DNA from: a phage
Length of the DNA stretch: 64,000 nt
Sequence record: NC_100372.1
Strand: one strand, 5' to 3'
In this document: in pieces, positions 21,221 to 34,476 of the stretch
Position numbering within the stretch: position 1 is the first letter of the stretch
Layout of the letters: each line of letters opens with the position of its first letter
The notes under the pieces: generated by a model
What the model was told of the DNA's origin: nothing
The model's database searches: none
The model's input: the letters and a program-made list of their open reading frames with translations, nothing else
Made by a program: the position numbers and the translations under genes

Positions 21221-21232
21221 ACATTAATCTTA

Positions 21233-21256: not shown

Positions 21257-21271
21257 GATCTGGAGATTTGC

Positions 21272-21805: not shown

Positions 21806-22086
21806 AAATGAGTGCTAAGGACAAGTTGCACCAGTTAGCGCTAAAACGTCCTGTAACTCTCCCTGACGAGCTTAACTCCATTTATGATGCGATTGTAGGG
21901 GAGATACAAAATAAGGCGTTAGCAGGCTTTCTGGGATGCGGATTTTCGATAAATCTTCCATCACACCTCTCAGACTACTTCCCACACATCGTTGGGGATT
22001 TGAGGGCAGGAGGTCTGCAGGTGGATGTTGTTGGCATCTCCCCGGAGAAAAATAACACAGTTGCCTACTTGACAGTGACCTGGTAG
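21802..22086 (+). CDS. Hypothetical protein
   Basis: ATG 21802 overlaps the upstream TGA (ATGA). Confidence 0.6.
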   Translation: MKMSAKDKLHQLALKRPVTLPDELNSIYDAIVGEIQNKALAGFLGCGFSINLPSHLSDYFPHIVGDLRAGGLQVDVVGISPEKNNTVAYLTVTW

Positions 22087-22122
22087 TAGTGTATTTTGTT
22101 TTCAACAAGAGGGGGGTCATCT

Positions 22123-22362
22123 ATGTATAAGTCATTTTCAATTTACTCAAGACAGGCAAAACACTACACAGAGATTCTGATCACTCAGAAAAAATCTGTG
22201 GAAGGTGAGTGGGAATATCATCATAAAATGTTGCGTCCAGACTGGGTTTTTGATAGGCTTATTGCTATGATCCCTCTTGGAGAAGTATACCCTCTGACAG
22301 GTCATAGGGATGCTTGGGATTTAATTGACTATATAGATTCATTTAAGGAGCCTAGATTATGA
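22123..22362 (+). CDS. Hypothetical protein
   Basis: ATG 22123 after AGAGGGGGG. Confidence 0.55.
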   Translation: MYKSFSIYSRQAKHYTEILITQKKSVEGEWEYHHKMLRPDWVFDRLIAMIPLGEVYPLTGHRDAWDLIDYIDSFKEPRL

Positions 22363-22757
22363 AGATTGAGATTACTGAAGAAGGTAAGAAAGTCTCTGGT
22401 AACTATGCAACAGTTATCCGTGATGTAATGTTCGAAGTCACTAAGATTGGCACATCCAAGGTTGGTCAAACGGTGAGTGTGCAAGGTAATATCACCGCAG
22501 GAGAGAAGATATTCATCGTGATAAAAGGCCAGGATCCTGTAGAAGGGACAGTTGGACGTGGTGGATACTTGTGTATCTCTGAAGAGCCTCGCATGCTAGT
22601 TGCTGATAACTCCACAGGTAAAAAGCGAGTATGTAACACGGACGAGGTGATGATTATCTATCCAGTCAACCCGGATGATCCGGCAACATGGATTGTGGGA
22701 AATGAAATCTTCTCTTTAGAAGAGCTATCCTTCCCAGCTCCGCGATCTGTTCAGTAA
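22359..22757 (+). CDS. Hypothetical protein (MKIEIT... family-like N-terminus)
   Basis: ATGA overlap with the upstream gene. Confidence 0.6.
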   Translation: MKIEITEEGKKVSGNYATVIRDVMFEVTKIGTSKVGQTVSVQGNITAGEKIFIVIKGQDPVEGTVGRGGYLCISEEPRMLVADNSTGKKRVCNTDEVMIIYPVNPDDPATWIVGNEIFSLEELSFPAPRSVQ

Positions 22758-22796
22758 TAATTTATCTTGCCAGGGACGGCAAAAGCAGGAGGTAGC

Positions 22797-23030
22797 ATGA
22801 AAGTTAAATTTCTTACAGATTTAGGGTACCCTTCCTTGGTTGACTGCGTTGGTAAAATTGTGGAAGCAAAACGGCTATCTGCAAACGATAATGTTGTCAT
22901 GGTTAAGGGAAAAGATTTACTAGCTGCAGGTGCAGAGTCTGGCAGGATCTCTCCTGACTATACGTATTACCTGTCTTTAAGTAATCTACCAGAACGAGGC
23001 GGCAAAGGCCTTGAAGTTGTGGAGGAGTGA
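22797..23030 (+). CDS. Small acidic protein, KGxDLxAAGA paralogue family
   Basis: MKVKFL...VMVKGKDLLAAGAE...VVEE. AGGAGG SD. Confidence 0.65.
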   Translation: MKVKFLTDLGYPSLVDCVGKIVEAKRLSANDNVVMVKGKDLLAAGAESGRISPDYTYYLSLSNLPERGGKGLEVVEE

Positions 23031-23035
23031 CAGGT

Positions 23036-23572
23036 ATGCTTCTGATTAACTGGGAAGACCTCTATGGGGACAAAGACCCTGTTGCGTTTGTTGATCGTAG
23101 GTGGAGGTACACTGAAGAACAACTGGCTGCAAAAAATTTAACTGCAAAACGCAGAAAGATCATCCAGTGCAAGTACAAATACGCACAGTTTGCTGCAAAA
23201 GTGTCTCCACAAATCGAGAGTTTTGTACTTAAATTGTATGACGAGTACCTCAAATTCAAATTGGATTTTGTACAGGTATACCGTGCACAGGTACGTCCAG
23301 ATACCAACATCTGTAGATGGAAGGTTGTTTGTGATGGTAAAGATTTGCCGCTCAGTTTGACAATTGAGTGGCGTTGGGGGTATCATGAGTGCGGTTTGTA
23401 TGATATTTGGGATGTCATTGTAGATCCTGCTAAGTACCTGAACACAGAGGAGCTGGAATATATCAATAAGGTTATTCTAGATATGTTTTTCAGCTACACC
23501 CATGAAAACTCTGAGAAAGAACGGGATAATTTTCTTGACACCCTCGGCAACCACCTGCAGTGTACAATTTAA
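23036..23572 (+). CDS. Hypothetical protein
   Basis: ATG 23036, 10 nt after GGAGG (GTG 23027 is too close to the SD). Confidence 0.6.
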   Translation: MLLINWEDLYGDKDPVAFVDRRWRYTEEQLAAKNLTAKRRKIIQCKYKYAQFAAKVSPQIESFVLKLYDEYLKFKLDFVQVYRAQVRPDTNICRWKVVCDGKDLPLSLTIEWRWGYHECGLYDIWDVIVDPAKYLNTEELEYINKVILDMFFSYTHENSEKERDNFLDTLGNHLQCTI

Positions 23573-23590
23573 CCTACAAAGGAGGAGCCA

Positions 23591-23827
23591 ATGAGTATAG
23601 ATGCTGTGCTGATAGGTTACCTGGTAGTAGCTGTTATAACAGCAGTAATCTTGGCAGGTATATGCATCGTGTCTACACGAAGGGTGAAGTTTGATGATTT
23701 TATCACCATCATCACTGCTGCGCCCTTTTGGCCTGTTGTTATCTTCATCGTAATAATGTGCCTAGTTGATTACCACAAGAATATCCGTAAGGAGAAAAAG
23801 GAGAGTAGGGATGGATACCGCACCTAA
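23591..23827 (+). CDS. Membrane protein (2 TM)
   Basis: Two hydrophobic spans VLIGYLVVAVITAVILAGICIV and ITAAPFWPVVIFIVIMCLV. AAGGAGGAG SD. Confidence 0.65.
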   Translation: MSIDAVLIGYLVVAVITAVILAGICIVSTRRVKFDDFITIITAAPFWPVVIFIVIMCLVDYHKNIRKEKKESRDGYRT

Positions 23828-23963
23828 AACTGTTTATACTGTTCTTAAAGAGATTGCGTTCTACGCAGATCTTAGCCGGGCACCTTTATGGGAAAAGAAT
23901 ATGTATTTAAAATGGTGCGTGAAATTAGGGGGGCCTTCTAATGTTTCAAGCCATGTTTATTGA
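23811..23963 (+). CDS. Hypothetical protein (50 aa)
   Basis: ATG 23811 within track ORF 23766..23963. Confidence 0.4.
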   Translation: MDTAPKTVYTVLKEIAFYADLSRAPLWEKNMYLKWCVKLGGPSNVSSHVY

Positions 23964-24069
23964 AATGCTCTCTGGGGTATTACTGCTGGTAGCCATTTTG
24001 GGTGGCGCGGCACTGATGTATAATTATCTTGAAAAAGGGGACAGTAATGACAAAAAAATAAATCCTTAG
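23941..24069 (+). CDS. Single-TM mini-protein (42 aa) ending at an A7 run
   Basis: MFQAMFIEMLSGVLLLVAILGGAALMYNYLEKGDSNDKKINP. See the frameshift finding. Confidence 0.45.
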   Translation: MFQAMFIEMLSGVLLLVAILGGAALMYNYLEKGDSNDKKINP

Positions 24070-24235
24070 AACAGGCTGAAAACCTTCTCCACGAGCTGGT
24101 AAAGGAGTGGAAAGTTGAATACTCAGATTTTAATGCAAGAGAGGGGGAAGATTATTGGCCTACAGAGCGCTCAGAGGGAGAGTGGTATCAAGATTTCATA
24201 GAATGGCTATATCAGACGTGCGATGAGGGGTGACG

Positions 24236-24691
24236 ATGTTTGTTAAATATGTAAAAACGTGCCTCAACAACCTTGGTAGAGAGCATTGGTACACACTGCT
24301 TGAAAAAGGAGAAATTTTAACAAAATCTGGAAAGATAACTTTGATACCTTTGGACGATAAAGACCCGTCACTACTTGTCATAGATGATTACGTTACAGGT
24401 GTGTCGTACGAGGTATCTGTGGAGAGGTTAATACGCAGATCTGGAGGTCCTTATGACCGAAGAGAGTATGTTTTCGATTCCGTTACAGAGAAGGAAGATC
24501 CGTCCCTAATGTTTAGAATGGTAATCAGGGATATGAAATCATCTATAAATAGGATCGTAAAGGACATTAAGGAGCCTTTTAGGGTAAAAGTTAATAAGTT
24601 TTTTGATTCTAAGATCAACATACTCACCGTTGTGCTAGGCGTAATTCAACTTCTGTTAATTTTGCACTATTTTGAACTGTTGTTTAAGTAA
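24236..24691 (+). CDS. Hypothetical protein with C-terminal TM helix
   Basis: ATG 24236 after GAGGGG. C-terminal ILTVVLGVIQLLLILHYF. Confidence 0.6.
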   Translation: MFVKYVKTCLNNLGREHWYTLLEKGEILTKSGKITLIPLDDKDPSLLVIDDYVTGVSYEVSVERLIRRSGGPYDRREYVFDSVTEKEDPSLMFRMVIRDMKSSINRIVKDIKEPFRVKVNKFFDSKINILTVVLGVIQLLLILHYFELLFK

Positions 24692-24751
24692 TGTGCATTA
24701 TGGCACAAAGGATGTGCCATAATTAAATAAACTAAGAAAGAGGTAGAGAGA

Positions 24752-25099
24752 ATGTCAAAGATTAAATCGATATTAATGTGGGTGGCTGTTGTAGCTTTTG
24801 TAGGATACTGGACTTGGGAAACTGAATTAAAAGATATTGGGTATACCAGCCTTGAGAGCAAGGCGTGCATTGGCATAACCGATGCATTCAGGCAGAATGC
24901 TATGGATCACGAATGTGTCGATGCAGATATAGATGAGAAACTGTCTAAGGACAAAGATTTTTACCATGGTCATGCCTTGCTTGATAGTGGTGACACTGTG
25001 GAATTCTGGTCGTGGTTCCGTGAAGATGGGACAATAAAGACAGCAGTAAAGATTTCCAACAAAGAGTTGATGCTGTTGCAGCAGAAGGAGGTGCAATGA
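24752..25099 (+). CDS. Membrane-anchored/secreted hypothetical protein
   Basis: N-terminal hydrophobic ILMWVAVVAFVGYWTW. AGAGG SD. Confidence 0.6.
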   Translation: MSKIKSILMWVAVVAFVGYWTWETELKDIGYTSLESKACIGITDAFRQNAMDHECVDADIDEKLSKDKDFYHGHALLDSGDTVEFWSWFREDGTIKTAVKISNKELMLLQQKEVQ

Positions 25100-25383
25100 T
25101 CTGGATATCCTACGCTGATGGCACCATGCTGTATACTGCAGGTACTAGATATGAAGTTAAGGAGGACGATAAAAAATTTATCGTAAAAACATTTGACAAG
25201 GACGACAACCTTTTGCTAGAATTGACTTACAAGGTTGGGGATGTATCTAGCATCCAATTAGATTGCGGTCATAAAGATAACCCGCTCAAGAAACCTGGGG
25301 TAGGTAAAGCTTCAGAAGAACGCCTGTCTCGTATTGCAGAAAGCGTTTCTGCACAAAAATCTAAAAAGGGGACTAGAAAATGA
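25096..25383 (+). CDS. Hypothetical protein
   Basis: ATGA overlap with the upstream gene. Confidence 0.6.
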   Translation: MIWISYADGTMLYTAGTRYEVKEDDKKFIVKTFDKDDNLLLELTYKVGDVSSIQLDCGHKDNPLKKPGVGKASEERLSRIAESVSAQKSKKGTRK

Positions 25384-25574
25384 AAAACTTACATTTTAAC
25401 ACTTATTACTACAACACTTTGAATGATTTGTATTATATTGTTCGAAGTAAAAATCCTGAAACAGTCCTATTCTGCCGCGAACCTTTCAAAGGAGAGGAAG
25501 TGGAGTCTGAGATGAATGTTAGCCAGATTACCTCTTTGTTGCTCTCAGGTGCAATGGAAGAAGCAATATTCTAA
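25380..25574 (+). CDS. Hypothetical protein
   Basis: ATGA overlap with the upstream gene. Confidence 0.55.
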   Translation: MKNLHFNTYYYNTLNDLYYIVRSKNPETVLFCREPFKGEEVESEMNVSQITSLLLSGAMEEAIF

Positions 25575-25592
25575 ACCAGGCGGGAGGGTTTT

Positions 25593-25778
25593 ATGAAGCA
25601 CTATTGTCTGTCTGGTAGGATGGGGGTGGATTGTGATTGGGTTTTCTTAAAACTTGTCAGCGTTCGAGAGTCCATCCCAGAGGAAGAGCAAGAAAGTGAG
25701 CTGATGTCATGGATCAACTATTACGGCAACACTTTCCGGCATGTCAAAATGGAAGAGCTGCCAAACGAGGCTGATTGA
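25593..25778 (+). CDS. Hypothetical protein
   Basis: GGGAGGG SD upstream. Confidence 0.55.
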   Translation: MKHYCLSGRMGVDCDWVFLKLVSVRESIPEEEQESELMSWINYYGNTFRHVKMEELPNEAD

Positions 25779-25780
25779 TT

Positions 25781-25870
25781 ATGGTCGCATCAATATTAAC
25801 GTTTATGGGTGGCGTGGCATTCGGATTCATTCTTTGTCTGTTTATAGTTATCATGGCTATGCGAGGCTGA
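25781..25870 (+). CDS. Single-TM mini-peptide (29 aa)
   Basis: MVASILTFMGGVAFGFILCLFIVIMAMRG. Fills the gap between neighbouring genes exactly. Confidence 0.4.
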   Translation: MVASILTFMGGVAFGFILCLFIVIMAMRG

Positions 25871-25873
25871 ATT

Positions 25874-26158
25874 ATGAAACTGTTCGAGTGGTTTAAAAAG
25901 TTTAAATACCAGGCTGTTGCTGTATCGAAATGGACCGTCCGCTGGGTGGACGATGATGGAACACAAATTCCCGGTGATCAGGATACCGGATACTGGGTTA
26001 TGATGGAGAACGGATTTGGGAAAAGGAAGTTTAAATGTGTTGGTGCTCCTACTCTTTTAAATGTTAGAAGTGTGCCAGGGTACAGCACTATGGTTGTTTG
26101 GGAGCTATCCGGTGTTCCTCCTGCTAATGTGCAATATCTGCCAAACCCAGAAAAATAA
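25874..26158 (+). CDS. Hypothetical protein
   Basis: GAGG SD. Start as in the ORF track. Confidence 0.6.
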   Translation: MKLFEWFKKFKYQAVAVSKWTVRWVDDDGTQIPGDQDTGYWVMMENGFGKRKFKCVGAPTLLNVRSVPGYSTMVVWELSGVPPANVQYLPNPEK

Positions 26159-26170
26159 AAGGAGAAGATA

Positions 26171-26455
26171 ATGAGCAATGGTGTTAGCAATAGTGCTGCA
26201 GAGTTTAAAGTGATCTGTAAAGGAACTTATTGGATAGTGAAACAGAAAGTGTACCTATTCGGTTTCATACCGTTTTGGCAGAGATTTTGCTGGGGAGCTA
26301 ACGAGCTTAAGAGATACGCAACCAAGGCTATGGCACTTATTGGTATAGCTGAATACATTGCTGCCAGGGACAGAGAGGGTAAAACTTGTTACTACACTGC
26401 TGACGAGATTCGTAACAGTGTTTACGTTCCACAACCGCCCGATGGAGACCGCTGA
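26171..26455 (+). CDS. Hypothetical protein
   Basis: AAGGAG SD upstream. Confidence 0.6.
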   Translation: MSNGVSNSAAEFKVICKGTYWIVKQKVYLFGFIPFWQRFCWGANELKRYATKAMALIGIAEYIAARDREGKTCYYTADEIRNSVYVPQPPDGDR

Positions 26456-26679
26456 TGAAAGTTAAAGTTTTAGATTCAAGCTTCTATATTGGTCAGGAGC
26501 CCTTAGTGGGGAAAGTGTTTACCGCTATCCCTAACGAAGATTATCCTGACCTTCTAAAAATAAAAGGTGCAGATCTTATTGCCGCTGGTGCATCCCAGGA
26601 ATGCTTTGACAGTCAGTGGACCTACAACTTTGCCCTAGGAGAGGATGTGGAGATAGTGGAGGACGATCATGAAGGTTAA
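26455..26679 (+). CDS. Small acidic protein, KGxDLxAAGA family
   Basis: MKVKVLD...LKIKGADLIAAGASQE...VEIVEDD. Confidence 0.65.
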   Translation: MKVKVLDSSFYIGQEPLVGKVFTAIPNEDYPDLLKIKGADLIAAGASQECFDSQWTYNFALGEDVEIVEDDHEG

Positions 26680-26923
26680 AATTCTTGACTCTAACGTCTA
26701 CTTGGGACAATCCTTCCTGAAAGGAAAGGTAGTACCTGCTGTATACTTCGAAGGGTTGCCGTGGGACGATCCTGTGCGGCAAAATCACAGCCATGTAGGC
26801 CACAATGTGGTGTTCATCTTGGGATCAGACCTGATCGCGGCTGGTGCCCCGGAATATTATTTCGGAGAGGACTCGTATTATGCCTTTGGGGCAGGGTCAG
26901 ATGCAGATATTTTAGAGCTGTGA
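26669..26923 (+). CDS. Small acidic protein, KGxDLxAAGA family
   Basis: MKVKILD...ILGSDLIAAGAPE...ADILEL. Confidence 0.65.
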   Translation: MKVKILDSNVYLGQSFLKGKVVPAVYFEGLPWDDPVRQNHSHVGHNVVFILGSDLIAAGAPEYYFGEDSYYAFGAGSDADILEL

Positions 26924-26935
26924 TGGGGAACTGTT

Positions 26936-27334
26936 GTGAAAAATAAACTGTTCAAAGTTACAATGAAAATTCGCGGAGCTTGGAGCGTAAAGCAAGGGCG
27001 TATCCCCGAATTTGAGAAAGACTTCTACGTAGTCTCCACCTCGGAGGAGGCTGCATGCTGGCAGGCTGGCTATGCCTATGCAAGAACCTGGTACGAAGGA
27101 TACCAGACTGGAGGCTATGACGGAGAAATTGTCAGTAAGGGTGTGGAAGAAATTAATGTGTTGACAAGTGAAAAAGTTTTTGTTATAGTGCATCCAGATT
27201 CCAGAGTGAAGCATTACTGGAATGCCAGAACAAAAACCTGGACACCGTTTGCAGATTCTGCTACACCACTTTTAAACCAGAAAGCTCTTGACTCTGCCCC
27301 AAGCTATGGGGTTGTTGAAGAAAAGATAAGCTGA
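26936..27334 (+). CDS. Hypothetical protein, paralogue of 29141..29536
   Basis: Shares FVIVHPDSRVKHYWNARTKTWTPFADSATPL with FVMRHPHSNIAYYWDVLNNEWTPDLQKATVL. GTG start. Confidence 0.6.
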   Translation: MKNKLFKVTMKIRGAWSVKQGRIPEFEKDFYVVSTSEEAACWQAGYAYARTWYEGYQTGGYDGEIVSKGVEEINVLTSEKVFVIVHPDSRVKHYWNARTKTWTPFADSATPLLNQKALDSAPSYGVVEEKIS

Positions 27335-27351
27335 AATAGTGGGGTGCTTAC

Positions 27352-27642
27352 ATGATGGATTTAGTTTTGGACGCTGATAACACCGGATCGTTTAAAAAAG
27401 ATGGTGTAATAAGCATGGACCAATCCTGCGATGTCAAGATTGACTCAAAATGGACCTACAAGTTTGACGGTGAGATCTTCGCAAATGATGAGAAGGTCGT
27501 GGATGCTGTAGCCATTTTAAACGCTTTAGGGTATGACCCTGTGAACTCATTGATCAAGGATCCTGTTGAGTTTGCAGAGTATGTTCGTAAAATGGCAGAT
27601 CTTGCAGTAGATATTTTAAAAACTATCGACAACAAGTTGTAA
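27352..27642 (+). CDS. Hypothetical acidic protein
   Basis: Start as in the ORF track. Confidence 0.6.
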   Translation: MMDLVLDADNTGSFKKDGVISMDQSCDVKIDSKWTYKFDGEIFANDEKVVDAVAILNALGYDPVNSLIKDPVEFAEYVRKMADLAVDILKTIDNKL

Positions 27643-27648
27643 AAACTG

Positions 27649-27677
27649 TTGACACAACGCTTCAGATTTAGTATCAT
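27649..27677 (+). promoter_or_regulatory. sigma70-type promoter upstream of the HPF homologue
   Basis: TTGACA(27649-27654), 17 nt spacer, TATCAT(27672-27677). A 5' leader hairpin AAGAGGG-GTTGGT-CCCTCTT at about 27687-27709. Confidence 0.7.
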
Positions 27678-27723
27678 TGTTTTCAAAGAGGGGTTGGTCC
27701 CTCTTCTTTAAAAGGAACACATT

Positions 27724-28041
27724 ATGCAAATTGAAATCACTGGCAACGTAGAGATCACTGAAGGTATGGTGTCTTTCATTTCCAACAAAATGTCCAAGCT
27801 GGAGCGTTTGCACCCCTCTGCCAACTATGCACGTGTGAGTGTAAAAGTTGAAAATGATCACCAGGAAGTTATGGCTTTCATTTTTGACACTTCTGGAAAA
27901 GAAGTTATCGCCAAAGCTAAAGGTAGTGATGCTTACGAGGCAACTGACCGTATGGTAGATGTTGCAGCACGCCAGTTGGCTAAGTGTGGTGGAAAGAAAG
28001 GTAAGGGAAAAGGCAAAGTAAAGATTGACTTTTTAGATTAA
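27724..28041 (+). CDS. hpf: Ribosome hibernation promoting factor / RaiA (YfiA) family homologue
   Basis: MQIEITGN-VEITEGMVSFISNKMSKLERL...VKVEN...AKAKGSDAYEATDRMVDVAARQLAK aligns along its length with E. coli HPF as I recall it (MQLNITGNNVEITEALREFVTAKFAKLEQY...LKVEK...ASAEGQDMYAAIDGLIDKLARQLTK). It has an extra Gly/Lys-rich tail. Confidence 0.85.
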   Translation: MQIEITGNVEITEGMVSFISNKMSKLERLHPSANYARVSVKVENDHQEVMAFIFDTSGKEVIAKAKGSDAYEATDRMVDVAARQLAKCGGKKGKGKGKVKIDFLD

Positions 28042-28050
28042 GGTGCTACA

Positions 28051-28152
28051 ATGGGCACGATTAAGAAATTAATCCCAAATGTAGAGATTGCATGCTTTGA
28101 AATTATGTTTGCAATCGCAGTTGTAGTTAATGTGTTAGGTTACGGCTATTAA
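28051..28152 (+). CDS. Single-TM mini-peptide (33 aa)
   Basis: MGTIKKLIPNVEIACFEIMFAIAVVVNVLGYGY. AAGGTG upstream. Confidence 0.4.
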   Translation: MGTIKKLIPNVEIACFEIMFAIAVVVNVLGYGY

Positions 28153-28178
28153 TATCAAATAATTGAGGAGACCTCTAA

Positions 28179-28448
28179 ATGAAAATTAAATTATTCCAAA
28201 CTGAGCTGGCAGACAAAAACTGTGGACTGGTTGAAGGCATGATCGTTGAAGCACAACCAGTTGACTACATGAAGGTGGTTCGTGATGCCCTGGGTGAAGG
28301 TTTTGATCTGATGGAGCCAGCTCTGCGAGAAGATGTCATCGAAATGGCTAAAAAGCACACACCGGAAGGTTTGGTAGTGTTTGTTGCTCCAGGTAATGGA
28401 GAGGAGTTGATTGTAACTCCGGATGTGTATGAGGTTGTAGAAGAGTAA
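28179..28448 (+). CDS. Small acidic protein, ...YEVVEE paralogue family
   Basis: MKIKLF...GLVVFVAPGNGEELIVTPDVYEVVEE. GAGGAG SD. Confidence 0.65.
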   Translation: MKIKLFQTELADKNCGLVEGMIVEAQPVDYMKVVRDALGEGFDLMEPALREDVIEMAKKHTPEGLVVFVAPGNGEELIVTPDVYEVVEE

Positions 28449-28540
28449 TCCTGCTTGGGTTGGAATACTTTCCTCGACAAGAAAGGTTTATAATTATTTG
28501 TGGGAAAGGAATCCCCATCTCTTACCAGAGGTGATACTAT

Positions 28541-28804
28541 ATGATTGTTTATTTTAAAACTTCAGGTGGATACCCTGATTCTCAAAGCTTGATTGGAAAA
28601 ACGTGCACAGCATACTCACCTCTTGATGAGGAGGTAAGTGGTATCCTACGAGATATGTATCGGATTGATCCACAAGAAGCTTTTGATCAAAACCTTGTAT
28701 TTGTCAAGGGATCAGACATAAAGTCTTTGGGGGCATTCCCTGAAGCAGATGATGATGCTGTTTATTCGTTTATGACACCTTTTGAAGCTATGGTTGTGGG
28801 GTAA
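28541..28804 (+). CDS. Small acidic protein, KGxDLxAAGA family (divergent)
   Basis: LVFVKGSDIKSLGAFPEADDDAVYSF. Confidence 0.6.
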   Translation: MIVYFKTSGGYPDSQSLIGKTCTAYSPLDEEVSGILRDMYRIDPQEAFDQNLVFVKGSDIKSLGAFPEADDDAVYSFMTPFEAMVVG

Positions 28805-28808
28805 GAAT

Positions 28809-29141
28809 ATGAAAGTACGCTTTATTGGTGAAACAATTCCTGTGCATCTCCGGTCTCCTGAAGACTCTGCAGATCTTGCATCTCAAAAGGCGAGAGGGTA
28901 TGATAAGAAAGTGATCTCAAGCAATGTAGAGCTTGAGGCCACCAGTCTGCCTGACCCAGCTGCATTCTTCAATCATTATGGCTACTATTTTAGCAATCTG
29001 ATGAATATTGGTGAGCTTGTGTTTATTAGTGGTGGAGAGATAGTTAGCAAGCTTGGTGGAGATCCGGATATCTTTCATGAAACCTGTCCTTTTGCATTTG
29101 TGGTGGGTTCAGATGTGGAAGTTATTGAGGAGGTTCGGTAA
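28809..29141 (+). CDS. Small acidic protein, KGxD family (divergent)
   Basis: MKVRFIG...LVFISGGEIVSKLGGDPD...VEVIEEVR. ATG 28809 inside track ORF 28782. Confidence 0.6.
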   Translation: MKVRFIGETIPVHLRSPEDSADLASQKARGYDKKVISSNVELEATSLPDPAAFFNHYGYYFSNLMNIGELVFISGGEIVSKLGGDPDIFHETCPFAFVVGSDVEVIEEVR

Positions 29142-29536
29142 TGGTAAGTCTATACCGTGTTGAGTATAGCTCGGATACTGTATACAACGTAAGAAGCAAA
29201 GATCGCAGTGATAGAGTGCAAGAAATGTATGTTCTTGCAGATAGTCCGTTATCTGCAGCGTTCAAGGCAGGAGCTCTTGCATCTCGTTGGAAATTTGAGG
29301 GTGGATCTTTCTATGAAGAAACCCTCGAAGATTCTGTTGTTATTTCTTCTGTAGAGGTTTCAACCGACTACGAAGGGAAAAAGTTCGTAATGCGGCACCC
29401 ACACAGCAACATTGCGTACTACTGGGATGTTCTGAACAATGAGTGGACCCCTGATCTTCAGAAGGCCACTGTTCTAACCCCATTCCTGGCAGATAAGTTC
29501 CCACCAGAAGGTAATTTATCTGCACTGTTTCAGTAA
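29141..29536 (+). CDS. Hypothetical protein, paralogue of 26936..27334
   Basis: See 26936..27334. ATG overlaps the upstream TAA. Confidence 0.6.
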   Translation: MVSLYRVEYSSDTVYNVRSKDRSDRVQEMYVLADSPLSAAFKAGALASRWKFEGGSFYEETLEDSVVISSVEVSTDYEGKKFVMRHPHSNIAYYWDVLNNEWTPDLQKATVLTPFLADKFPPEGNLSALFQ

Positions 29537-29554
29537 TTTTATGCCACACAGGTG

Positions 29555-29583
29555 TTGACAACACCAACCCTGTGTGCAATAAT
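29555..29583 (+). promoter_or_regulatory. sigma70-type promoter embedded in nested palindromes
   Basis: TTGACA(29555-29560), 17 nt spacer, AATAAT(29578-29583). GGTGTTGACAACACC palindrome sits inside CACACAGG...CCTGTGTG. Confidence 0.6.
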
Positions 29584-29615
29584 ACCTTCATCTTAACAAG
29601 ATAGGAGACCGACTG

Positions 29616-29873
29616 ATGAAGATTAAATTGAAAAACCTTGAAACGGCAGAGATTCAGGAAGGTGTTGATTTCCGTTCTAAAGATGGAGACATCCTAGAGG
29701 CGAATGTCCCGACATATAAGTTGATTAAAGGTTTTGGCAACGTTCCGGAGGAGGATATTACAGACATTCTTATGATGTTGATCCTTGACGGGACTGTGTT
29801 TGTAGGTGAAGGTGAGAACGCTATTGCAATCCCGAGCCATTTTTATGAAGTAGTTGACGAAGAGGTGCTGTAA
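29616..29873 (+). CDS. Small acidic protein, ...YEVVDEE family
   Basis: MKIKLKNL...GTVFVGEGENAIAIPSHFYEVVDEEVL. Confidence 0.65.
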   Translation: MKIKLKNLETAEIQEGVDFRSKDGDILEANVPTYKLIKGFGNVPEEDITDILMMLILDGTVFVGEGENAIAIPSHFYEVVDEEVL

Positions 29874-30224
29874 ATGAAAGTAGAGATCACAGGTTTTGAT
29901 ATGAATGCGGTTCCGGAAGATATTTTAGCTAAACTCCCGGAAGGTTTTAGTAACGGTGTTGTGGTGGATGCTGTCCCTCCTACCAAAGACATTCTGCTGC
30001 AGTATGGTGTAGCAGAGGAGGATGTCGATAAAGTTCTTACAATGATGGCAATCGACCGTGTTGTCGTTGTTAAAGGTCTTGAAGGTTTTGATGACGATCC
30101 TCTGATTATTCGTGGTGATGACTATCGCATCATCGACAACGAAGGCCAAGAGTTCTACGAACCTTCTGCTGAAGATGTTCTTAACTTACTACTGGAAGCA
30201 GGCACCGAAGAGGAGGAAGAATAA
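29874..30224 (+). CDS. Small acidic protein, same family
   Basis: MKVEITGF...RVVVVKGLEGFDDDPLIIRGDDYRIIDNEG. Poly-E tail. Confidence 0.65.
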   Translation: MKVEITGFDMNAVPEDILAKLPEGFSNGVVVDAVPPTKDILLQYGVAEEDVDKVLTMMAIDRVVVVKGLEGFDDDPLIIRGDDYRIIDNEGQEFYEPSAEDVLNLLLEAGTEEEEE

Positions 30225-30553
30225 TGAAAATTGATCCGTTACTGAAGGCTCGTGCAGAAAAAGCATACACTATCAAGCTGACCTCTCTGGTCCCTACTTG
30301 TCATCCGGATGTAGGTTGGCCTGAAGGCCTGGTAGAGGGGACTGTAACAGCTGCATACCTTCCTAACATCAAATACCTCATGGAGATCTTGGAGATGGAT
30401 GAGGAAACTGCAGAACAGTTCCAGTTAGACATGAAACAAAGTGGGACTCTGGTTATTCACGGGTGGTATAATACTAAAGATGCAGAAGATCCTCTGGTAA
30501 CTTCTAATCTGGCATATGAAATCTTAGGACCTTTGAACTTGGGGGAAGATTAA
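30224..30553 (+). CDS. Small acidic protein, same family (divergent)
   Basis: GTLVIHGWYNTKDAEDPLVTSNLAYEILGP. Confidence 0.6.
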   Translation: MKIDPLLKARAEKAYTIKLTSLVPTCHPDVGWPEGLVEGTVTAAYLPNIKYLMEILEMDEETAEQFQLDMKQSGTLVIHGWYNTKDAEDPLVTSNLAYEILGPLNLGED

Positions 30554-30840
30554 TGAAAGATTTGGTCAAGATCAAGATTAAAGATACCAATGGAGAACTC
30601 AGCCATTTTGGAATTAACGATGGTGACGAGCTGGTCGCCCACCTGCCTACCAAGGAAGTTGTAAGCAAGGCTGTTGCCGGAGAAGAAGATGCAATGCAGG
30701 CTGCTGGTGTGGATGAAAACTATGTAGCCATGTGCATGTGCCGAGATCAGGTTGTTCTGTATAAAGCGTATCGACCAAATGGAGCACCTGAGTGGCTTGT
30801 TTTCCGACCCGAAGGGTATGAAATTTTAGAGACACTATGA
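30553..30840 (+). CDS. Small acidic protein, same family (divergent)
   Basis: VKIKIKD...QVVLYKAYRPNGAPEWLVFRPEGYEILETL. Confidence 0.6.
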   Translation: MKDLVKIKIKDTNGELSHFGINDGDELVAHLPTKEVVSKAVAGEEDAMQAAGVDENYVAMCMCRDQVVLYKAYRPNGAPEWLVFRPEGYEILETL

Positions 30841-30920
30841 TAAATCTTGCCAAGGTTGCAATGGCACTGCTAATTATTTGCTGGATAGTGACCTTGGCAC
30901 TATGTCTTGTATTTCATTAA
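30837..30920 (+). CDS. Single-TM mini-peptide (27 aa)
   Basis: MINLAKVAMALLIICWIVTLALCLVFH. ATGA overlap with the upstream gene. Confidence 0.4.
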   Translation: MINLAKVAMALLIICWIVTLALCLVFH

Positions 30921-30929
30921 GGGGGCTGT

Positions 30930-31193
30930 ATGAACATCTTGGTGTGGGTTGTGGCAGTGGCGTTTGTTGCGTGCCTCTCTTGTTGGGTTGCTGTGAGGAT
31001 TTCTATAGCCACTCTTCGGAAATTAGGGTTCTCAGAGTGGGATATTAATATCCTTTCTTTTCGCAATGAGACAATCTCAGCCGCCCTGCTGTGCAAGAGG
31101 TTTAAGTGGGAACCTTGTGAGGTCATGAACTATCTAAGAACAGGGGATATTCCTGAGAGATTTAAAAAAGTTCTTGACGGCAAAGACAAATGA
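30930..31193 (+). CDS. Membrane-anchored hypothetical protein
   Basis: N-terminal TM ILVWVVAVAFVACLSCWVAV. AAGGGGG SD. Confidence 0.6.
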   Translation: MNILVWVVAVAFVACLSCWVAVRISIATLRKLGFSEWDINILSFRNETISAALLCKRFKWEPCEVMNYLRTGDIPERFKKVLDGKDK

Positions 31194-31202
31194 TAGTATA
31201 GT
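31174..31202 (+). promoter_or_regulatory. sigma70-type promoter
   Basis: TTGACG(31174-31179), 17 nt spacer, TATAGT(31197-31202). Confidence 0.6.
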
Positions 31203-31221
31203 GACTAACAAGAGGTGAGGA

Positions 31222-31362
31222 ATGACTGATTTTACTGAAGCTTTAATGATGGCCTTATCTGTTTTAGCGCTATCGGTGTGTTTTGGAGCGTTATTCACAT
31301 CTCTGGTTAGAGTTTTACATACCATATTATCACCCAAGGAGCACAGTAATGACGAAGATTGA
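31222..31362 (+). CDS. Single-TM mini-protein (46 aa) ending in UGA-C
   Basis: MTDFTEALMMALSVLALSVCFGALFTSLVRVLHTILSPKEHSNDED. GAGGTGAGG SD. Confidence 0.45.
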   Translation: MTDFTEALMMALSVLALSVCFGALFTSLVRVLHTILSPKEHSNDED

Positions 31363-31443
31363 CTTAAATGCTGGCGACCATTTGTTGTCAAATGCATCGG
31401 GGATTATCTTGGATTCACAATCGGCAACACTTACGAGGCGGTA

Positions 31444-31599
31444 GTGGCGAAGGTTTATCATGATAAAGTCCTCAGCCTTGTGTTTGACTGTGATGATGAC
31501 GGAGATGACCGTTACGTCTGTGAGGTGCTGGCACGTGACGATAGTGAAGACCAGAAATTCCTGGTTATTGAACTGAACGGTATTTTTGTAGAACGTTAA
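31444..31599 (+). CDS. Small acidic protein (51 aa from GTG; the open frame extends upstream to 31363 without a start)
   Basis: GTG 31444 five nt after GAGG. The frame is continuous with the 31222 ORF across its TGA. Confidence 0.35.
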   Translation: MAKVYHDKVLSLVFDCDDDGDDRYVCEVLARDDSEDQKFLVIELNGIFVER

Positions 31600-31627
31600 T
31601 TTAAAACAATATAAGGAGACTCTTACT

Positions 31628-31933
31628 ATGGCTAAATCTAAAGTTGAACTGTTCACCTCTCTGCCTTCTGACACTGCAGAGCGTGATCGCCTCCGTAAAA
31701 CAATTGAAGAGCTGGTGGAACTTCAGCTTCAGATTAAAGATCTGAAAGACGCTATCAAGGATATTATTCTTGTCGAGAAACAGGATCATCTGTATTCTCC
31801 TAAGTTTATCAAGTCATTGGTGGCTACCGAATTCGATATCCGCTACGAAGCTGAAAAACGTCGAGCTAAAATCGAAGAAGAGGTTGAGCACATGTCTGAA
31901 GCAGACATTCTGTTCAAACGCTCTGCAGAATAA
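31628..31933 (+). CDS. Hypothetical coiled-coil protein
   Basis: AAGGAG SD. Heptad-like RKTIEELVELQLQIKDLKDAIKD. Confidence 0.65.
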   Translation: MAKSKVELFTSLPSDTAERDRLRKTIEELVELQLQIKDLKDAIKDIILVEKQDHLYSPKFIKSLVATEFDIRYEAEKRRAKIEEEVEHMSEADILFKRSAE

Positions 31934-31941
31934 CAACGAGG

Positions 31942-31965
31942 AGGGGTCTTGGCCCCTATTTTTAC
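31942..31965 (+). terminator. Rho-independent terminator
   Basis: AGGGG-TCTTGG-CCCCT followed by ATTTTTAC. Confidence 0.7.
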
Positions 31966-31986
31966 TATCTATGGAGAAGATCAGAA

Positions 31987-32313
31987 ATGCTAATGCCGAT
32001 TACTGTAAAAGAGCTAAATGAACGTGATGCAGGGGGCCTGTGGCCTGCACGGAAAATACGCTGCGTTTATATGAAAGAGAATCTTGAGCACCTTGATCAG
32101 CAGATTGCGGTTGGTGATATTTTCGAAGTTCTCTATTCTAATCGTCGCAACTGGGAAACCATTCAACCTTCCGGTTTTGTTCTTGCCAGACTTGATACTG
32201 GAGAAGTGATTATCCCCGGGCTGGATATTGTCTTCGAAATTATCCAGGAGTGGGATCCTGATAAGATTAAATATGAAGAGTTATTCGGTGAAGGTATTAT
32301 CAAGCCTGTGTGA
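31987..32313 (+). CDS. Hypothetical protein
   Basis: Start as in the ORF track. Confidence 0.6.
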   Translation: MLMPITVKELNERDAGGLWPARKIRCVYMKENLEHLDQQIAVGDIFEVLYSNRRNWETIQPSGFVLARLDTGEVIIPGLDIVFEIIQEWDPDKIKYEELFGEGIIKPV

Positions 32314-32321
32314 GGTGGATT

Positions 32322-32621
32322 ATGTCTACAACGACAGCTAAATACTCCTATATGCCAGCAACCTCAGCAGAAATAGACTTCAGTTTCGATGTGTTTCCAT
32401 TGTTTGAGATAGTCCTGGCATACCCAACAATTCTATCTACTCCTGAATCACTTGTACCTGTTAAGTTGCAGAACGCTATGCATTCCATGCACTACAACAA
32501 TAAATGTAGGCACAGATGGTGTCAAGACGAGGAAAAAGATCTGGAGAGTTTGAAAGATTTTGACAGTCACCTTTTGACACCTTTTAGTTACTCAAACCTA
32601 GACAAACCCTCATGGGTATAG
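32322..32621 (+). CDS. Hypothetical protein
   Basis: ATG 32322 (the track start 32310 is GTG). Confidence 0.55.
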   Translation: MSTTTAKYSYMPATSAEIDFSFDVFPLFEIVLAYPTILSTPESLVPVKLQNAMHSMHYNNKCRHRWCQDEEKDLESLKDFDSHLLTPFSYSNLDKPSWV

Positions 32622-32645
32622 CAAAATATCAAATTTAAGGCACCT

Positions 32646-32672
32646 AGGACGCTCTGTGGCGTCCTTTTCTTT
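32646..32672 (+). terminator. Rho-independent terminator
   Basis: AGGACGC-TCTGTG-GCGTCCT followed by TTTCTTT. Confidence 0.85.
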
Positions 32673-32834
32673 ATCTGGTGCACGATTCCATACCTTAGAC
32701 AATTAATCTCCTTACAGAGCGTTTAAAGGCATCCTACAAACAACTCTCTATTTCGAGCGTAGCGAGAACGCACGCCCGTTTTGACCCAAATCACCATACG
32801 CTCGGATTTTAACCAAACCCTCGCGGTGTTTCTG

Positions 32835-32863
32835 TTGACACATTACCGCTCCTGTGATAATAT
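32835..32863 (+). promoter_or_regulatory. sigma70-type promoter
   Basis: TTGACA(32835-32840), 17 nt spacer, TAATAT(32858-32863). Confidence 0.65.
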
Positions 32864-32895
32864 CCACACATCGTTTGAAGAATATGGGATACACA

Positions 32896-32976
32896 ATGAA
32901 AACATTGTCAGAGGTTTTAGTGGTGATCCTGATGATCATTGCGTCCATAGCGGCTGTTGCCGGAATATGCTTATAG
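32896..32976 (+). CDS. Single-TM mini-peptide (26 aa)
   Basis: MKTLSEVLVVILMIIASIAAVAGICL. First ATG after the 32835 promoter. Weak SD. Confidence 0.35.
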   Translation: MKTLSEVLVVILMIIASIAAVAGICL

Positions 32977-33051
32977 CATCGACACGTTCCAGCCATATGT
33001 CGATAAAGTCTTATTTTTTAAACATGTTGCCGGAATACTCACGGGTGGAAC

Positions 33052-33237
33052 ATGACCAACACACATGCATCTACAGAAACATCTGAAGGAGTGACAGAGG
33101 AAAACTTCAATTCTGAGGATTCTCTATCTCCGTCCCAGGTGGACCCTGAGGCTGATGACCTAACGTGGGAGGATATCATAGCCATCTGGTTCTCTATTAT
33201 GCCTGAGCACGAAGAGTTCAGAGGTGGGAGACTATGA
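33052..33237 (+). CDS. Hypothetical highly acidic protein
   Basis: GGGTGGA upstream. D/E/S-rich. Confidence 0.5.
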   Translation: MTNTHASTETSEGVTEENFNSEDSLSPSQVDPEADDLTWEDIIAIWFSIMPEHEEFRGGRL

Positions 33238-33357
33238 AGCACCGAGCCCACATAAGTTTATCATGCTAAAGCATGGCCTGAAGGGGCAAACGTGCATAAT
33301 TCCATCGTATTGGAACGTATAAACCCCGTTCACACTCTCATTTCCAGAGGAGATTTC

Positions 33358-33573
33358 ATGAAAATAGAAATATTTGGTGGGGCTGACAACACTCGTGGCC
33401 TGATTTACCTTGAATTCGATGAATCTTACCTGCCAGAGGTGTTAAATATAGATGCTGTTGCGGAAGCCCTTGATGTAGACCCTAAAGATCTCTACTCCCG
33501 TGCTGAGATTGATGGTTGGGAAGAGACTCTGAACATTGATTTCAGTGAAGTAGTAGATGAACCTTTGGACTGA
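33358..33573 (+). CDS. Small acidic protein (MKIEIFGG..., family-like)
   Basis: ATG 33358 after AGAGGAG. Last gene of the + strand arm. Confidence 0.6.
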   Translation: MKIEIFGGADNTRGLIYLEFDESYLPEVLNIDAVAEALDVDPKDLYSRAEIDGWEETLNIDFSEVVDEPLD

Positions 33574-33713
33574 CACACAAGTCTGCTTTGCAGGTTTAGC
33601 TGCTCAGCTAAGGTTCTGGAGTCACCTATAACATCTTCCAACTAAATTTCCTACCAACACAGTTACTTACCCACCACACATGACTGTTTGCTTGTTTAGT
33701 GAGCAGTCATCCC

Positions 33714-33741
33714 TTGACATTCTTGCCTATCTTGATAAAAT
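33714..33741 (+). promoter_or_regulatory. sigma70-type promoter firing into ORF-free DNA
   Basis: TTGACA(33714-33719), 16 nt spacer, TAAAAT(33736-33741). No ORF with an SD downstream. Confidence 0.5.
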
Positions 33742-33936
33742 TAAGTTCTTCTCTTTTCTTTTACCGAGTAATTCGGGTTTTCTGTTCTCTTCGGTTTGAA
33801 GGGGTATGGAGATACACCTGAGTGAACAGGGTGAACAACCGAACCTTTAGCTATGGCATTAGCATGGCGAAGCGGACGGGTGACGAAAGAGGGGCCGGAG
33901 GACACCAGTCACTGCCATATAGTATATGGGTGATAA

Positions 33937-34476
33937 CCTGAAGAGTCTGAATAAGTGTTTAAGTACCAGTCAGAGGAAAAGGTGAATGGTAGCCGAAGGG
34001 GGAGGGGGGTTTCTTATATCTTTAATTTGTATACTTTATATACACTTGTAAACCAATTCAATTAGGATCTGTTTACCACACAAAGTGGATGGAGACAAAT
34101 ATCACCTATTAAACTTGAATTATTTATAGAAAATACCACAACACCGCTTAAGTCTTTGATTTTACACACAAATCTTACAAATATCCTACCTCCATATTTA
34201 ACATACTTGTAACATATTCCATATCCTACCTGCCTGATCAATTTACTCCCACCACATTCCCACATTTTCCCTGTCTGTACTACCCCACCCCCGCCGGGAG
34301 TCCCGTCATATCTGGCTTTCCAGCAAATATCACACCCACAAATATCATCACCTGAAGAGGGTTTCATCCCATAATACCTGCCTTACCTGAAGAGCGCTTC
34401 ATACACCACCTAAATTTTTTAATTGACCCCTCCCCGCCGCCGGAGAGGTTGGCTTTTCCCACACAGGCCTGAAGAG
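33937..34476 (+). repeat. CCTGAAGAG 9-mer, 4 direct copies
   Basis: Copies at 33937-33945, 34351-34359, 34386-34394 and 34468-34476. Confidence 0.8.

What the first reader, a model, noticed from the sequence alone, without database searches (positions are those of the whole stretch)
27649..28041. Phage-encoded ribosome hibernation factor (HPF/RaiA homologue) with its own promoter and structured leader
The 105-aa product aligns over essentially its whole length with E. coli HPF as I recall it (N-terminal MQ(I/L)xITG, xVEITE, KLE, VKVE, the (D/Q)xYxAxD...ARQL(A/T)K helix). It adds a Gly/Lys tail (GGKKGKGKGKVKIDFLD).

It is a stand-alone transcription unit with promoter at 27649-27677 and a leader hairpin at 27687-27709. 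It sits in the middle of a block of small unknown genes.

HPF and RaiA bind the 30S decoding region and silence or dimerise ribosomes. A lytic phage carrying one could shut down host translation, protect ribosomes, or counter translation-targeting defences. The Lys-rich tail is not present in the host protein and may alter ribosome or RNA contacts.
Basis: partly seen in the sequence, partly recalled or inferred. Interest (0 to 1): 0.62.

Follow-up and report, generated by a model that had tools for sequence, protein, structure and literature searches.

The report
Known rV5-phage ribosome hibernation factor gene
The gene is a real phage copy of the bacterial ribosome hibernation factor HPF, but it has been annotated in rV5-like coliphages since 2006, and the one published test (2019) did not find it on ribosomes, so it is a correct but already known finding.

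Summary
The window is Escherichia phage vB_EcoM-ECP26, an rV5-like Vequintavirus. ORF 27724-28041 (105 aa) is a true HPF/YfiA-family protein. It passes the Pfam PF02482 and TIGR00741 thresholds. Its best solved relative is E. coli HPF. [quoted passage not shown]

The sigma-70 promoter (27649-27677) is real and conserved, and rV5's GenBank record already annotates it as P144. The hairpin (27686-27705) exists but is modest. It is no better than shuffled sequence and is absent from a diverged relative. The gene is not a stand-alone unit: it heads an operon, with no terminator before about 31942.

The gene was found in all 118 matching phage records and in two more distant uncultured relatives. 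It is under strong purifying selection (dN/dS 0.03-0.07) and has phage-like GC content.

Mizuno et al. 2019 already described rV5 HPF and expressed it in E. coli. They found no peptides in salt-washed 70S/100S fractions and no change in 100S. I add that the phage clade keeps K23, K26, R83 and K87 but has no basic residue at contact positions K80, K89 or H55. All three lineages carry longer basic tails of unrelated sequence.

Already known; its role in infection is unresolved.

The parts
27649..27677 (+). Sigma-70-type early promoter (-35 TTGACA, 17-nt spacer, -10 TATCAT), equivalent to rV5 P144
   Evidence: Matches the consensus at 11 of 12 positions. Matches this strong are enriched on the coding strand: 6 observed against 0.27 expected. 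Conserved in 9 Vequintavirus relatives, and the -35 is also kept in the diverged L002. Annotated as P144 in DQ832317.
27686..27705 (+). 7-bp stem-loop (AAGAGGG / CCCUCUU, 6-nt loop). It starts 1-2 nt after the inferred transcription start (about 27684-27685). Possible 5'-terminal mRNA-stabilising hairpin.
   Evidence: Fold energy -10.4 kcal/mol, not better than shuffles (z = 0.43). Present with variable strength (-5.3 to -15.7 kcal/mol) in Vequintavirus relatives and absent in L002. The start-site position and the stabilising role are inferences.
27712..27716 (+). Shine-Dalgarno-like AAGGA, 7 nt upstream of the ATG
   Evidence: Read directly from the sequence. A ribosome-binding site is annotated at the same place in phage Murica.
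27724..28041 (+). CDS of the phage HPF homologue (105 aa + TAA). Equivalent to ECP26DNA_00166 and rV5 ORF144 (ABI79209).
   Evidence: ORF list. Pfam PF02482 48.8 bits against a 23.7 cut-off. TIGR00741 47.0 bits against 40.9. phrog_12469 E 1.6e-69. 100% identity to MK883717.
27724..27990 (+). HPF core domain, residues 1-89 (beta1-alpha1-beta2-beta3-beta4-alpha2)
   Evidence: AlphaFold2 pLDDT is mostly above 90, with elements E2-7, H13-29, E33-43, E46-55, E60-67 and H70-89. All 36 top Foldseek PDB hits are HPF/YfiA/pY, with rmsd 1.0-1.1 A to 4hei and 6h4n_x. dN/dS is 0.03-0.065.
27991..28038 (+). Disordered Lys/Gly-rich C-terminal tail, residues 90-105 (GKKGKGKGKVKIDFLD)
   Evidence: pLDDT below 50. 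Net charge of residues 89-105 is +4. Length and frame vary between isolates, but the proximal CG(G/R)KKGKG is kept in all. Diverged relatives P0004 and P0010 have basic tails of similar length and unrelated sequence.
28051..29536 (+). Downstream cistrons of the same operon (rV5 ORFs 145-149), ending at the next promoter, P150 (29555-29583)
   Evidence: ORFs. No terminator-like site lies between 28041 and 31942 on this strand. The rV5 annotation shows P144, ORFs 144-149, P150, then a terminator after ORF158.

Best explanation
The ORF encodes a short-HPF-derived member of the HPF/YfiA family. It is carried as a long-resident, selectively maintained gene in every matching rV5-like (Vequintavirus) record searched. 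It is the first cistron of a host-sigma-70-driven operon in the small-gene region, so it is probably made soon after infection (inferred).

The most likely mechanism, inferred from fold and retained residues, is that the core docks in the channel between the head and body of the 30S subunit. There it would overlap the mRNA and the A- and P-site tRNA positions on vacant ribosomes, as HPF and RaiA do. Binding is probably weaker and more salt-sensitive than for the host factor. The phage clade has no basic residue at three of the contact positions reported for Gram-negative HPFs (K80, K89, H55). In their place it has a longer, disordered, positively charged tail that could make non-specific rRNA contacts and extend towards the RMF / anti-Shine-Dalgarno site.

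The net effect would be transient parking or protection of idle host ribosomes, or competition with host hibernation factors, rather than stable 100S formation.

Shown here or in the literature: identity, fold, selection, promoter, operon position and distribution. Inferred: ribosome binding, expression timing and physiological role.
For: Family and fold:
- PF02482 E 1.2e-12, above threshold.
- TIGR00741 above its cut-off.
- Best PDB relatives are E. coli HPF structures 2rql, 4v8h and 6h4n.
- The AlphaFold2 core is confident, and the 36 best PDB fold matches are all HPF/YfiA/pY at 1.0-1.1 A rmsd.

Maintained function:
- dN/dS is 0.03-0.065 over residues 1-88 while dS reaches 0.72.
- The gene is present in all 118 phage records that match the region.
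- It is syntenic in an uncultured relative whose protein is only 64% identical.
- Gene GC is 41.8% and GC3 39.6%, like neighbouring phage genes.

Retained contact positions: K23, K26, R29 (Q in E. coli), R83 and K87 in E. coli numbering are kept in all three phage lineages. The contact list comes from bioRxiv 10.1101/2025.10.07.680626.

Weaker binding:
- The phage clade has V/T/I at position 80, where 24 of 30 bacterial homologues are basic.
- It has G/S/N at position 89, where 25 of 30 are basic.
- It has no basic residue at 55.
- rV5 HPF was absent from high-salt-washed ribosomes although it was expressed.

Expression: the promoter is strong and conserved and the gene is promoter-proximal.
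Against: - The only experiment found no rV5 HPF peptides in 70S or 100S fractions and no change in 100S. That is also compatible with a complete loss of ribosome binding.
- The score against the HPF equivalog model NF007780 is far below its cut-off (55.4 against 125).
- A factor that blocks the decoding site has no obvious selectivity for host over phage mRNAs, so the benefit to a lytic phage is unclear.
- Early timing is inferred from promoter type only. No transcriptome was found.
- Position 80 is also V or I in some bacterial homologues (4 of the 30 aligned), so its loss alone is not diagnostic.
Confidence: 0.55

Rival explanations
1. Anti-hibernation competitor. The phage protein occupies the HPF/RaiA site weakly and reversibly. 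Its longer basic tail sterically excludes RMF, as the RaiA tail is thought to do. This would prevent or undo stable 100S/HPF-RaiA hibernation in slow-growing or stress-responding hosts, keeping ribosomes available for phage mRNAs.
For: Mizuno et al. proposed that viral HPF might compete with cellular homologues and prevent dimer formation. All three phage lineages have tails about 8-10 residues longer than host HPF, with unrelated sequences but net charge +3 to +4. The RaiA tail runs towards the RMF site. No phage record among 50,697 encodes an RMF homologue, so the phage does not bring the partner needed for 100S formation. The lost basic contacts fit a readily displaced binder.
Against: Expression of rV5 HPF did not change the small 100S fraction, although the authors themselves suggest the growth phase may have been inadequate. 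A weak binder is a poor competitor unless it is very abundant. The distal tail is truncated or frameshifted in some isolates. From my own recollection, not checked here, none of the BASEL collection E. coli phages tested replicated on deeply dormant hosts.
Confidence: 0.2
2. Host shut-off factor. A true translation inhibitor made early that traps ribosomes released from host mRNAs, lowering host protein synthesis (including defence proteins) while abundant, strongly initiating phage mRNAs still compete.
For: The HPF fold and part of the rRNA-contact set are retained. The gene has a strong host-type promoter and a promoter-proximal position. It lies in the small-gene region that in large lytic phages typically holds host-takeover genes (general knowledge).
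Against: No selectivity mechanism is evident. The published expression experiment showed ribosome profiles that were nearly all 70S. It does not report growth arrest, though this was not specifically examined in what I read. The protein was absent from ribosome fractions.
Confidence: 0.12
3. Neofunctionalised scaffold. The HPF fold has been kept but the protein no longer binds ribosomes. It acts on another RNA or protein target, for example as a small RNA-binding protein using the Lys-rich tail.
For: Not found on ribosomes. Only 40-42% identity to host HPF, although Enterobacterales HPFs are 80-86% identical to each other. Below the HPF and RaiA equivalog cut-offs. No basic residue at 80, 89 or 55. 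In the exhaustive search the clade is isolated: nothing lies between 65% and 44% identity.
Against: The residues that stay invariant between phage and bacterial proteins include the rRNA-contacting K23, K26, R83 and K87. Purifying selection acts on the whole core. No alternative partner is suggested by the gene context.
Confidence: 0.12
4. Functionless passenger gene picked up from a host.
For: None beyond the lack of a demonstrated function.
Against: dN/dS is 0.03-0.065 with dS up to 0.72. The gene is present in all 118 matching genomes and in diverged relatives. Its composition is phage-like.
Confidence: 0.01

Closest known systems
E. coli short HPF (YhbH; PDB 2rql, 4v8h, 6h4n)
   Same: Same Pfam/TIGRFAM family. 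[quoted passage not shown] Collinear over residues 1-89 with one indel near residue 8. Shares the MQ(I/L)xITG, VEITE and KLE motifs, D69, Y71, D75, D79, R83 and K87.
   Different: Only 40-42% identical. Below the HPF equivalog cut-off (55.4 against 125 bits). No basic residue at K80, K89 or H55, and residue 8 is deleted. The C-terminal KDKLKQH is replaced by a 17-residue Gly/Lys tail. It was not seen on 70S/100S and had no effect on 100S in the one published test.
E. coli RaiA (YfiA, protein Y)
   Same: Same fold and family. Like RaiA it has a C-terminal extension beyond the short-HPF length that is disordered, which is why RefSeq names it 'RaiA'.
   Different: Much weaker sequence match: 19.3 bits against a 158 cut-off, and PDB E 0.09 against 7e-12 for HPF. 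The tail is unrelated in sequence. By my recollection it is also shorter than the RaiA tail and lacks RaiA's acidic end. It derives from hpf, not raiA.
Other phage-encoded HPF homologues (Cronobacter phage GAP32, Xanthomonas phage XaC1; phrog_8990)
   Same: Large (over 130 kb) lytic phages carrying a PF02482 protein.
   Different: Independent, more divergent acquisitions. The ECP26 protein matches phrog_8990 only at E 1e-6, against 1.6e-69 for its own phrog_12469. Mizuno et al. placed GAP32 elsewhere in the tree.
Phage-encoded ribosomal proteins bS21 and bL12 (Mizuno et al. 2019)
   Same: Same class of translation-related genes captured from hosts and kept under purifying selection.
   Different: Those proteins were found incorporated into E. 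coli ribosomes. rV5 HPF was not.
T4-type PeSL cassettes (early promoter followed by a stem-loop; recalled from Arbiol et al. 2010, not checked here)
   Same: A sigma-70 early promoter followed immediately by a stem-loop, in a region of many small ORFs. The same architecture recurs at other promoters in this window.
   Different: No sequence homology was tested. The hairpin here is modest and is not conserved outside the genus.

Membership tests
HPF/YfiA family (Pfam PF02482 Ribosomal_S30AE; TIGR00741) | Profile match above the curated threshold over the whole domain | tested here: met
   PF02482 scores 48.8 bits against a 23.7 cut-off, residues 3-88 on profile positions 1-83 of 88. TIGR00741 scores 47.0 against 40.9.
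HPF/YfiA family (Pfam PF02482 Ribosomal_S30AE; TIGR00741) | [quoted passage not shown] | tested here: met
   AlphaFold2 model with mean pLDDT 84.9 and a core mostly above 90; elements E2-7, H13-29, E33-43, E46-55, E60-67, H70-89. Foldseek PDB ranks 1-36 are all HPF/YfiA/pY, with TM up to 0.94 and rmsd 1.0-1.1 A.
HPF/YfiA family (Pfam PF02482 Ribosomal_S30AE; TIGR00741) | Basic rRNA-contact residues on alpha1 and alpha2 (K23, K26, K80, R83, K87, K89, K91) and the H55/E60 contact with uS9 | tested here: inconclusive
   K23, K26, R83 and K87 are kept in all three phage lineages. E60 and K91 are kept in the window protein only. Position 80 is V/T/I, position 89 is G/S/N and position 55 is not basic. 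Position 80 is also non-basic in 6 of 30 bacterial homologues.
HPF/YfiA family (Pfam PF02482 Ribosomal_S30AE; TIGR00741) | Binds the 30S decoding channel of vacant ribosomes | not testable with these tools
   The published test on the 98%-identical rV5 protein found no peptides in high-salt 70S/100S fractions, although the protein was present in the extract.
Short HPF (YhbH) equivalog, NCBIfam NF007780 | Score above the equivalog cut-off | tested here: not met
   55.4 bits against a cut-off of 125.
Short HPF (YhbH) equivalog, NCBIfam NF007780 | Promotes or stabilises RMF-dependent 100S dimers | not testable with these tools
   Published: no discernible effect on 100S when expressed. No RMF homologue exists in any phage record.
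RaiA (YfiA) equivalog, NCBIfam NF007654 | Score above the equivalog cut-off | tested here: not met
   19.3 bits against a cut-off of 158. PDB RaiA chains match at E about 0.09-0.1.
RaiA (YfiA) equivalog, NCBIfam NF007654 | Extended C-terminal tail directed at the RMF site | tested here: inconclusive
   An extended, disordered, basic tail is present, but its sequence is unrelated and its path on the ribosome is unknown.
Long HPF (two-domain, self-dimerising) | C-terminal dimerisation domain after a linker | tested here: not met
   The protein is 105 aa. The only significant Pfam match is PF02482, covering residues 3-88. The 16-residue tail is predicted to be disordered.

The most novel reading that the evidence does not exclude
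The phage protein is a dedicated anti-hibernation factor. It would be an HPF derivative selected for weak, reversible occupancy of the decoding channel, with a basic tail that excludes RMF. rV5-like phages could then prevent or reverse host 100S/RaiA ribosome silencing when they infect nutrient-limited gut E. coli. Three diverged phage lineages have each kept a longer basic tail and lack the same two alpha2 lysines, which suggests a specific adaptation rather than drift.
Probability: 0.2. Interest if true: 0.6.

Novelty: already known. Interest (0 to 1): 0.2.

Why it matters
A virus that carries a factor normally used to switch ribosomes off is counter-intuitive. Learning whether it silences, protects or re-awakens ribosomes would show how large lytic coliphages handle slow-growing hosts, which matters for phage therapy against non-growing bacteria.

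The gene, its family assignment and its promoter are already in public annotation and in the literature, so this finding adds no new entity. The useful additions here are:
- a residue-level argument for why the published ribosome-binding test may have been negative;
- the recurrent basic tail in three phage lineages;
- the correction that the gene heads an operon;
- two annotation errors that have spread through related records.

Tried and rejected
- The word-indexed homologue search with the single protein gave only 5 hits, all in the phage clade. It had to be repeated with an alignment that included E. coli HPF.
- Exhaustive phmmer over 1.84 billion representatives found only the protein's own cluster, then weak hits at 44% identity or less. 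Its second-best hit, P0122, is a PPC-repeat protein and is spurious.
- The IMG/VR scan gave only two additional loci, both close relatives.
- An Rfam scan of 27300-28500 at E up to 1 gave only two chance-level hits, so the leader is not a known RNA family and not the raiA motif.
- The hairpin was considered as an intrinsic terminator for the upstream genes. I rejected this as the main reading: it lies downstream of the promoter, the terminator scan did not call it, and it is followed by CUUUAAAA rather than a U-tract.
- The neighbouring 89-aa ORF labelled 'sigma 54 modulation factor' was tested as a possible second HPF. It has no Pfam hit, so the label is a misannotation.
- No tRNA genes lie in the window.
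- Searches for later experimental work on phage HPF found nothing beyond Mizuno 2019 and a mention in Mathieu 2020.
- dS between the Vequintavirus genes and L002 is saturated, so no dN/dS could be given for that comparison.

Full report
**Source of the window.** A 2-kb stretch around the finding is 100% identical to Escherichia phage vB_EcoM-ECP26 (MK883717, Vequintavirinae, genus Vequintavirus, the rV5-like phages). It is 93-99% identical to 117 other records. In that record the ORF is ECP26DNA_00166, 'sigma 54 modulation factor'.

**The observation.**
- The promoter is TTGACA, 17 nt, TATCAT at 27649-27677, an 11-of-12 consensus match.
- Matches this good occur six times on the coding strand of 20000-36000 and never on the other strand. 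A first-order Markov model gives 0.27 +/- 0.5 per strand, with a maximum of 2 in 300 simulations.
- The promoter is conserved in nine Vequintavirus relatives. Its -35 element is kept even in a much more distant relative.
- The rV5 GenBank record already carries it as 'Sigma70-type promoter; P144'.

**The hairpin.** It is real: 27686-27705, 7 bp, -10.4 kcal/mol. But the 77-nt leader folds no better than its dinucleotide shuffles (z = 0.43). In relatives a stem-loop at this place ranges from -5.3 to -15.7 kcal/mol. The outer stem is invariant and the inner stem variable, so there is no informative covariation. The diverged relative L002 has no hairpin and a shorter leader. If transcription starts about 7 nt after the -10 element (27684-27685, inferred), the stem begins 1-2 nt from the 5' end. 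That is the geometry of 5'-terminal stabilising hairpins, but this is an inference. The same promoter-then-hairpin layout recurs at several other promoters in the window.

**The transcription unit.** The 'stand-alone transcription unit' claim fails. No terminator-like site follows the gene until 31942-31957. That site corresponds to the rV5 terminator after ORF158, and the rV5 annotation shows P144, ORFs 144-149, then P150. The gene is the first cistron of an operon. Kropinski et al. 2013 place it in the large region of 88 mostly small ORFs.

**What the protein is.**
- Pfam PF02482 (Ribosomal_S30AE) matches residues 3-88 at E 1.2e-12, 48.8 bits against a gathering score of 23.7.
- The HPF/YfiA family model TIGR00741 is passed (47.0 against 40.9).
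- The narrow equivalog models are not passed: E. coli-type HPF 55.4 against 125, and RaiA 19.3 against 158.
- The best solved relatives are E. coli HPF chains (E about 1e-11, residues 1-89). RaiA chains score about 0.1. The gene therefore descends from hpf rather than raiA.
- An AlphaFold2 model built on a 46-sequence alignment has mean pLDDT 84.9. [quoted passage not shown]
- The 36 best Foldseek matches in the PDB are all HPF/YfiA/pY proteins. Rmsd is 1.0-1.1 A to V. cholerae HPF and to E. coli HPF in the 100S ribosome.

**Evolution and distribution.**
- All 118 phage records that match the region encode the protein.
- A search with E. coli HPF finds only about a dozen further records among 50,697. 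One is the Xanthomonas jumbo phage XaC1, and several are short fragments or bacterial DNA.
- Two more distant versions exist. P0004 is 64% identical. It sits in the same small-gene context on 126-kb and 137-kb contigs of an uncultured rV5-like phage that shares only 12-16% of 10 kb with known phages at the DNA level. P0010 is 57% identical.
- In an exhaustive search of 1.84 billion cluster representatives the clade is isolated. After P0004 the next real homologue is 44% identical at E 4e-7.
- The nearest cellular proteins are Enterobacterales short HPFs at 37-44% identity. Those are 80-86% identical among themselves.
- Gene GC (41.8%) and GC3 (39.6%) match neighbouring phage genes.
- Over residues 1-88, dN/dS against ten relatives is 0.03-0.065 while dS reaches 0.72.
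- The gene is therefore old in this phage lineage and functionally constrained.

**Residue-level comparison.** A 2025 preprint on hibernating ribosomes of Gram-negative pathogens lists the HPF contacts:
- K26 and Q29 contact the 16S backbone near m3U1498.
- H55 and E60 contact the uS9 C-terminus.
- T53 and H62 contact m2G966.
- A basic track K80, R83, K87, K89, K91 runs along helix alpha2.

In an alignment with 30 diverse bacterial homologues, all three phage lineages keep K23, K26, R83 and K87, and they have R at position 29. They have V/T/I at position 80 (basic in 24 of 30), G/S/N at 89 (basic in 25 of 30), no basic residue at 55, and a deletion of residue 8 (basic in 21 of 30). Position 80 is also V or I in some bacterial homologues, so this is a weakening rather than a disqualification.

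All three phage lineages end in a tail 8-10 residues longer than host HPF. The tails are unrelated in sequence and have net charge +3 to +4. Within Vequintavirus the distal tail varies by indels. It is frameshifted or truncated in APCEc02, P0003 and Murica, while the proximal CG(G/R)KKGKG segment is always kept.

**Prior knowledge.** The rV5 record (2006) annotates ORF144 as similar to the Klebsiella sigma-54 modulation protein. Mizuno et al. 2019 (Nat Commun 10:752) list the rV5, FV3, JES-2013, FFH2 and typing-phage-14 proteins as viral HPFs. They also expressed the rV5 protein in E. coli. Peptides were found in crude extract but none in 70S or 100S fractions purified under high-stringency salt, and 100S abundance did not change. 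The authors name inadequate growth phase, true loss of binding, or dissociation during the salt washes as possible reasons. Mathieu et al. 2020 repeat the annotation for gut rV5-like isolates. I found no later experimental work.

**Most likely mechanism.** The fold and half of the contact set are retained under strong selection. I therefore think the protein still docks in the 30S decoding channel of vacant ribosomes, but more weakly and more electrostatically than host HPF, with the tail replacing the lost alpha2 lysines. That would explain its loss in high-salt preparations. [quoted passage not shown] No phage record encodes RMF, which makes phage-driven 100S formation unlikely. Complete loss of ribosome binding with a new target remains possible.

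**Verdict.** The finding is correct in its main point and wrong in one detail (the stand-alone unit). The entity is already known and annotated. What remains open and moderately interesting is the function during infection.

Noticed in passing
window 28179-28448 (+): This 89-aa ORF is labelled 'sigma 54 modulation factor' in ECP26 and several other records, but it has no Pfam match. The label appears to have slipped by one gene in phage APCEc02 and then been propagated by similarity. Conversely, some records name the true HPF gene 'ATP-dependent protease La type I'.
   Followed up: partly
window - strand promoters at 44197-44170, 42274-42247, 37608-37580, 59858-59830, 61099-61071: Strong sigma-70-like promoters are followed within a few nucleotides by stable stem-loops. 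Two of them carry nearly identical GGCGGGAA...TTCCCGCC hairpins (-14.6 kcal/mol). This is the same layout as upstream of the HPF gene and recalls the T4-type promoter-stem-loop cassettes.
   Followed up: no
window 26455-27334 and 28809-29536 (+): Paralogous gene modules flank the HPF gene. The small acidic proteins 26455-26679, 26669-26923 and 28809-29141 are related (E 2e-14 to 3e-4). So are the 131-132-aa proteins 26936-27334 and 29141-29536 (E 5e-8). This suggests tandem duplication in the small-gene region.
   Followed up: partly
window 27991-28038; loci L008, L009, L010, L006; protein P0003: The Lys/Gly tail is encoded by an A/G-rich, slippage-prone stretch. Isolates differ by indels. The APCEc02 frameshift (tail ...GKGERQSKD) looks like a 1-nt deletion in GGAAAAGG, and the same tail is seen independently in P0003. 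Murica is truncated at 99 aa.
   Followed up: partly
window 28025-28052 (+): A promoter-like site, TTGACT-16-TACAAT with an extended -10 TG, lies inside the last codons of the HPF gene. It overlaps the start of the 33-aa hydrophobic ORF 28051-28152 (rV5 ORF145).
   Followed up: no
phage records MG0656xx (for example L013 = MG065644): Eighteen 'UNVERIFIED Campylobacter phage' records are 94-95% identical to this E. coli phage over the region. The host assignment looks doubtful.
   Followed up: no
L002:4942-5000: In the diverged relative the HPF leader is about 25 nt shorter. The purine-rich GAGGG that forms the 5' arm of the hairpin in ECP26 sits there at Shine-Dalgarno distance from the ATG. 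The hairpin plus a new AAGGA site in Vequintavirus may therefore have arisen by an insertion.
   Followed up: no
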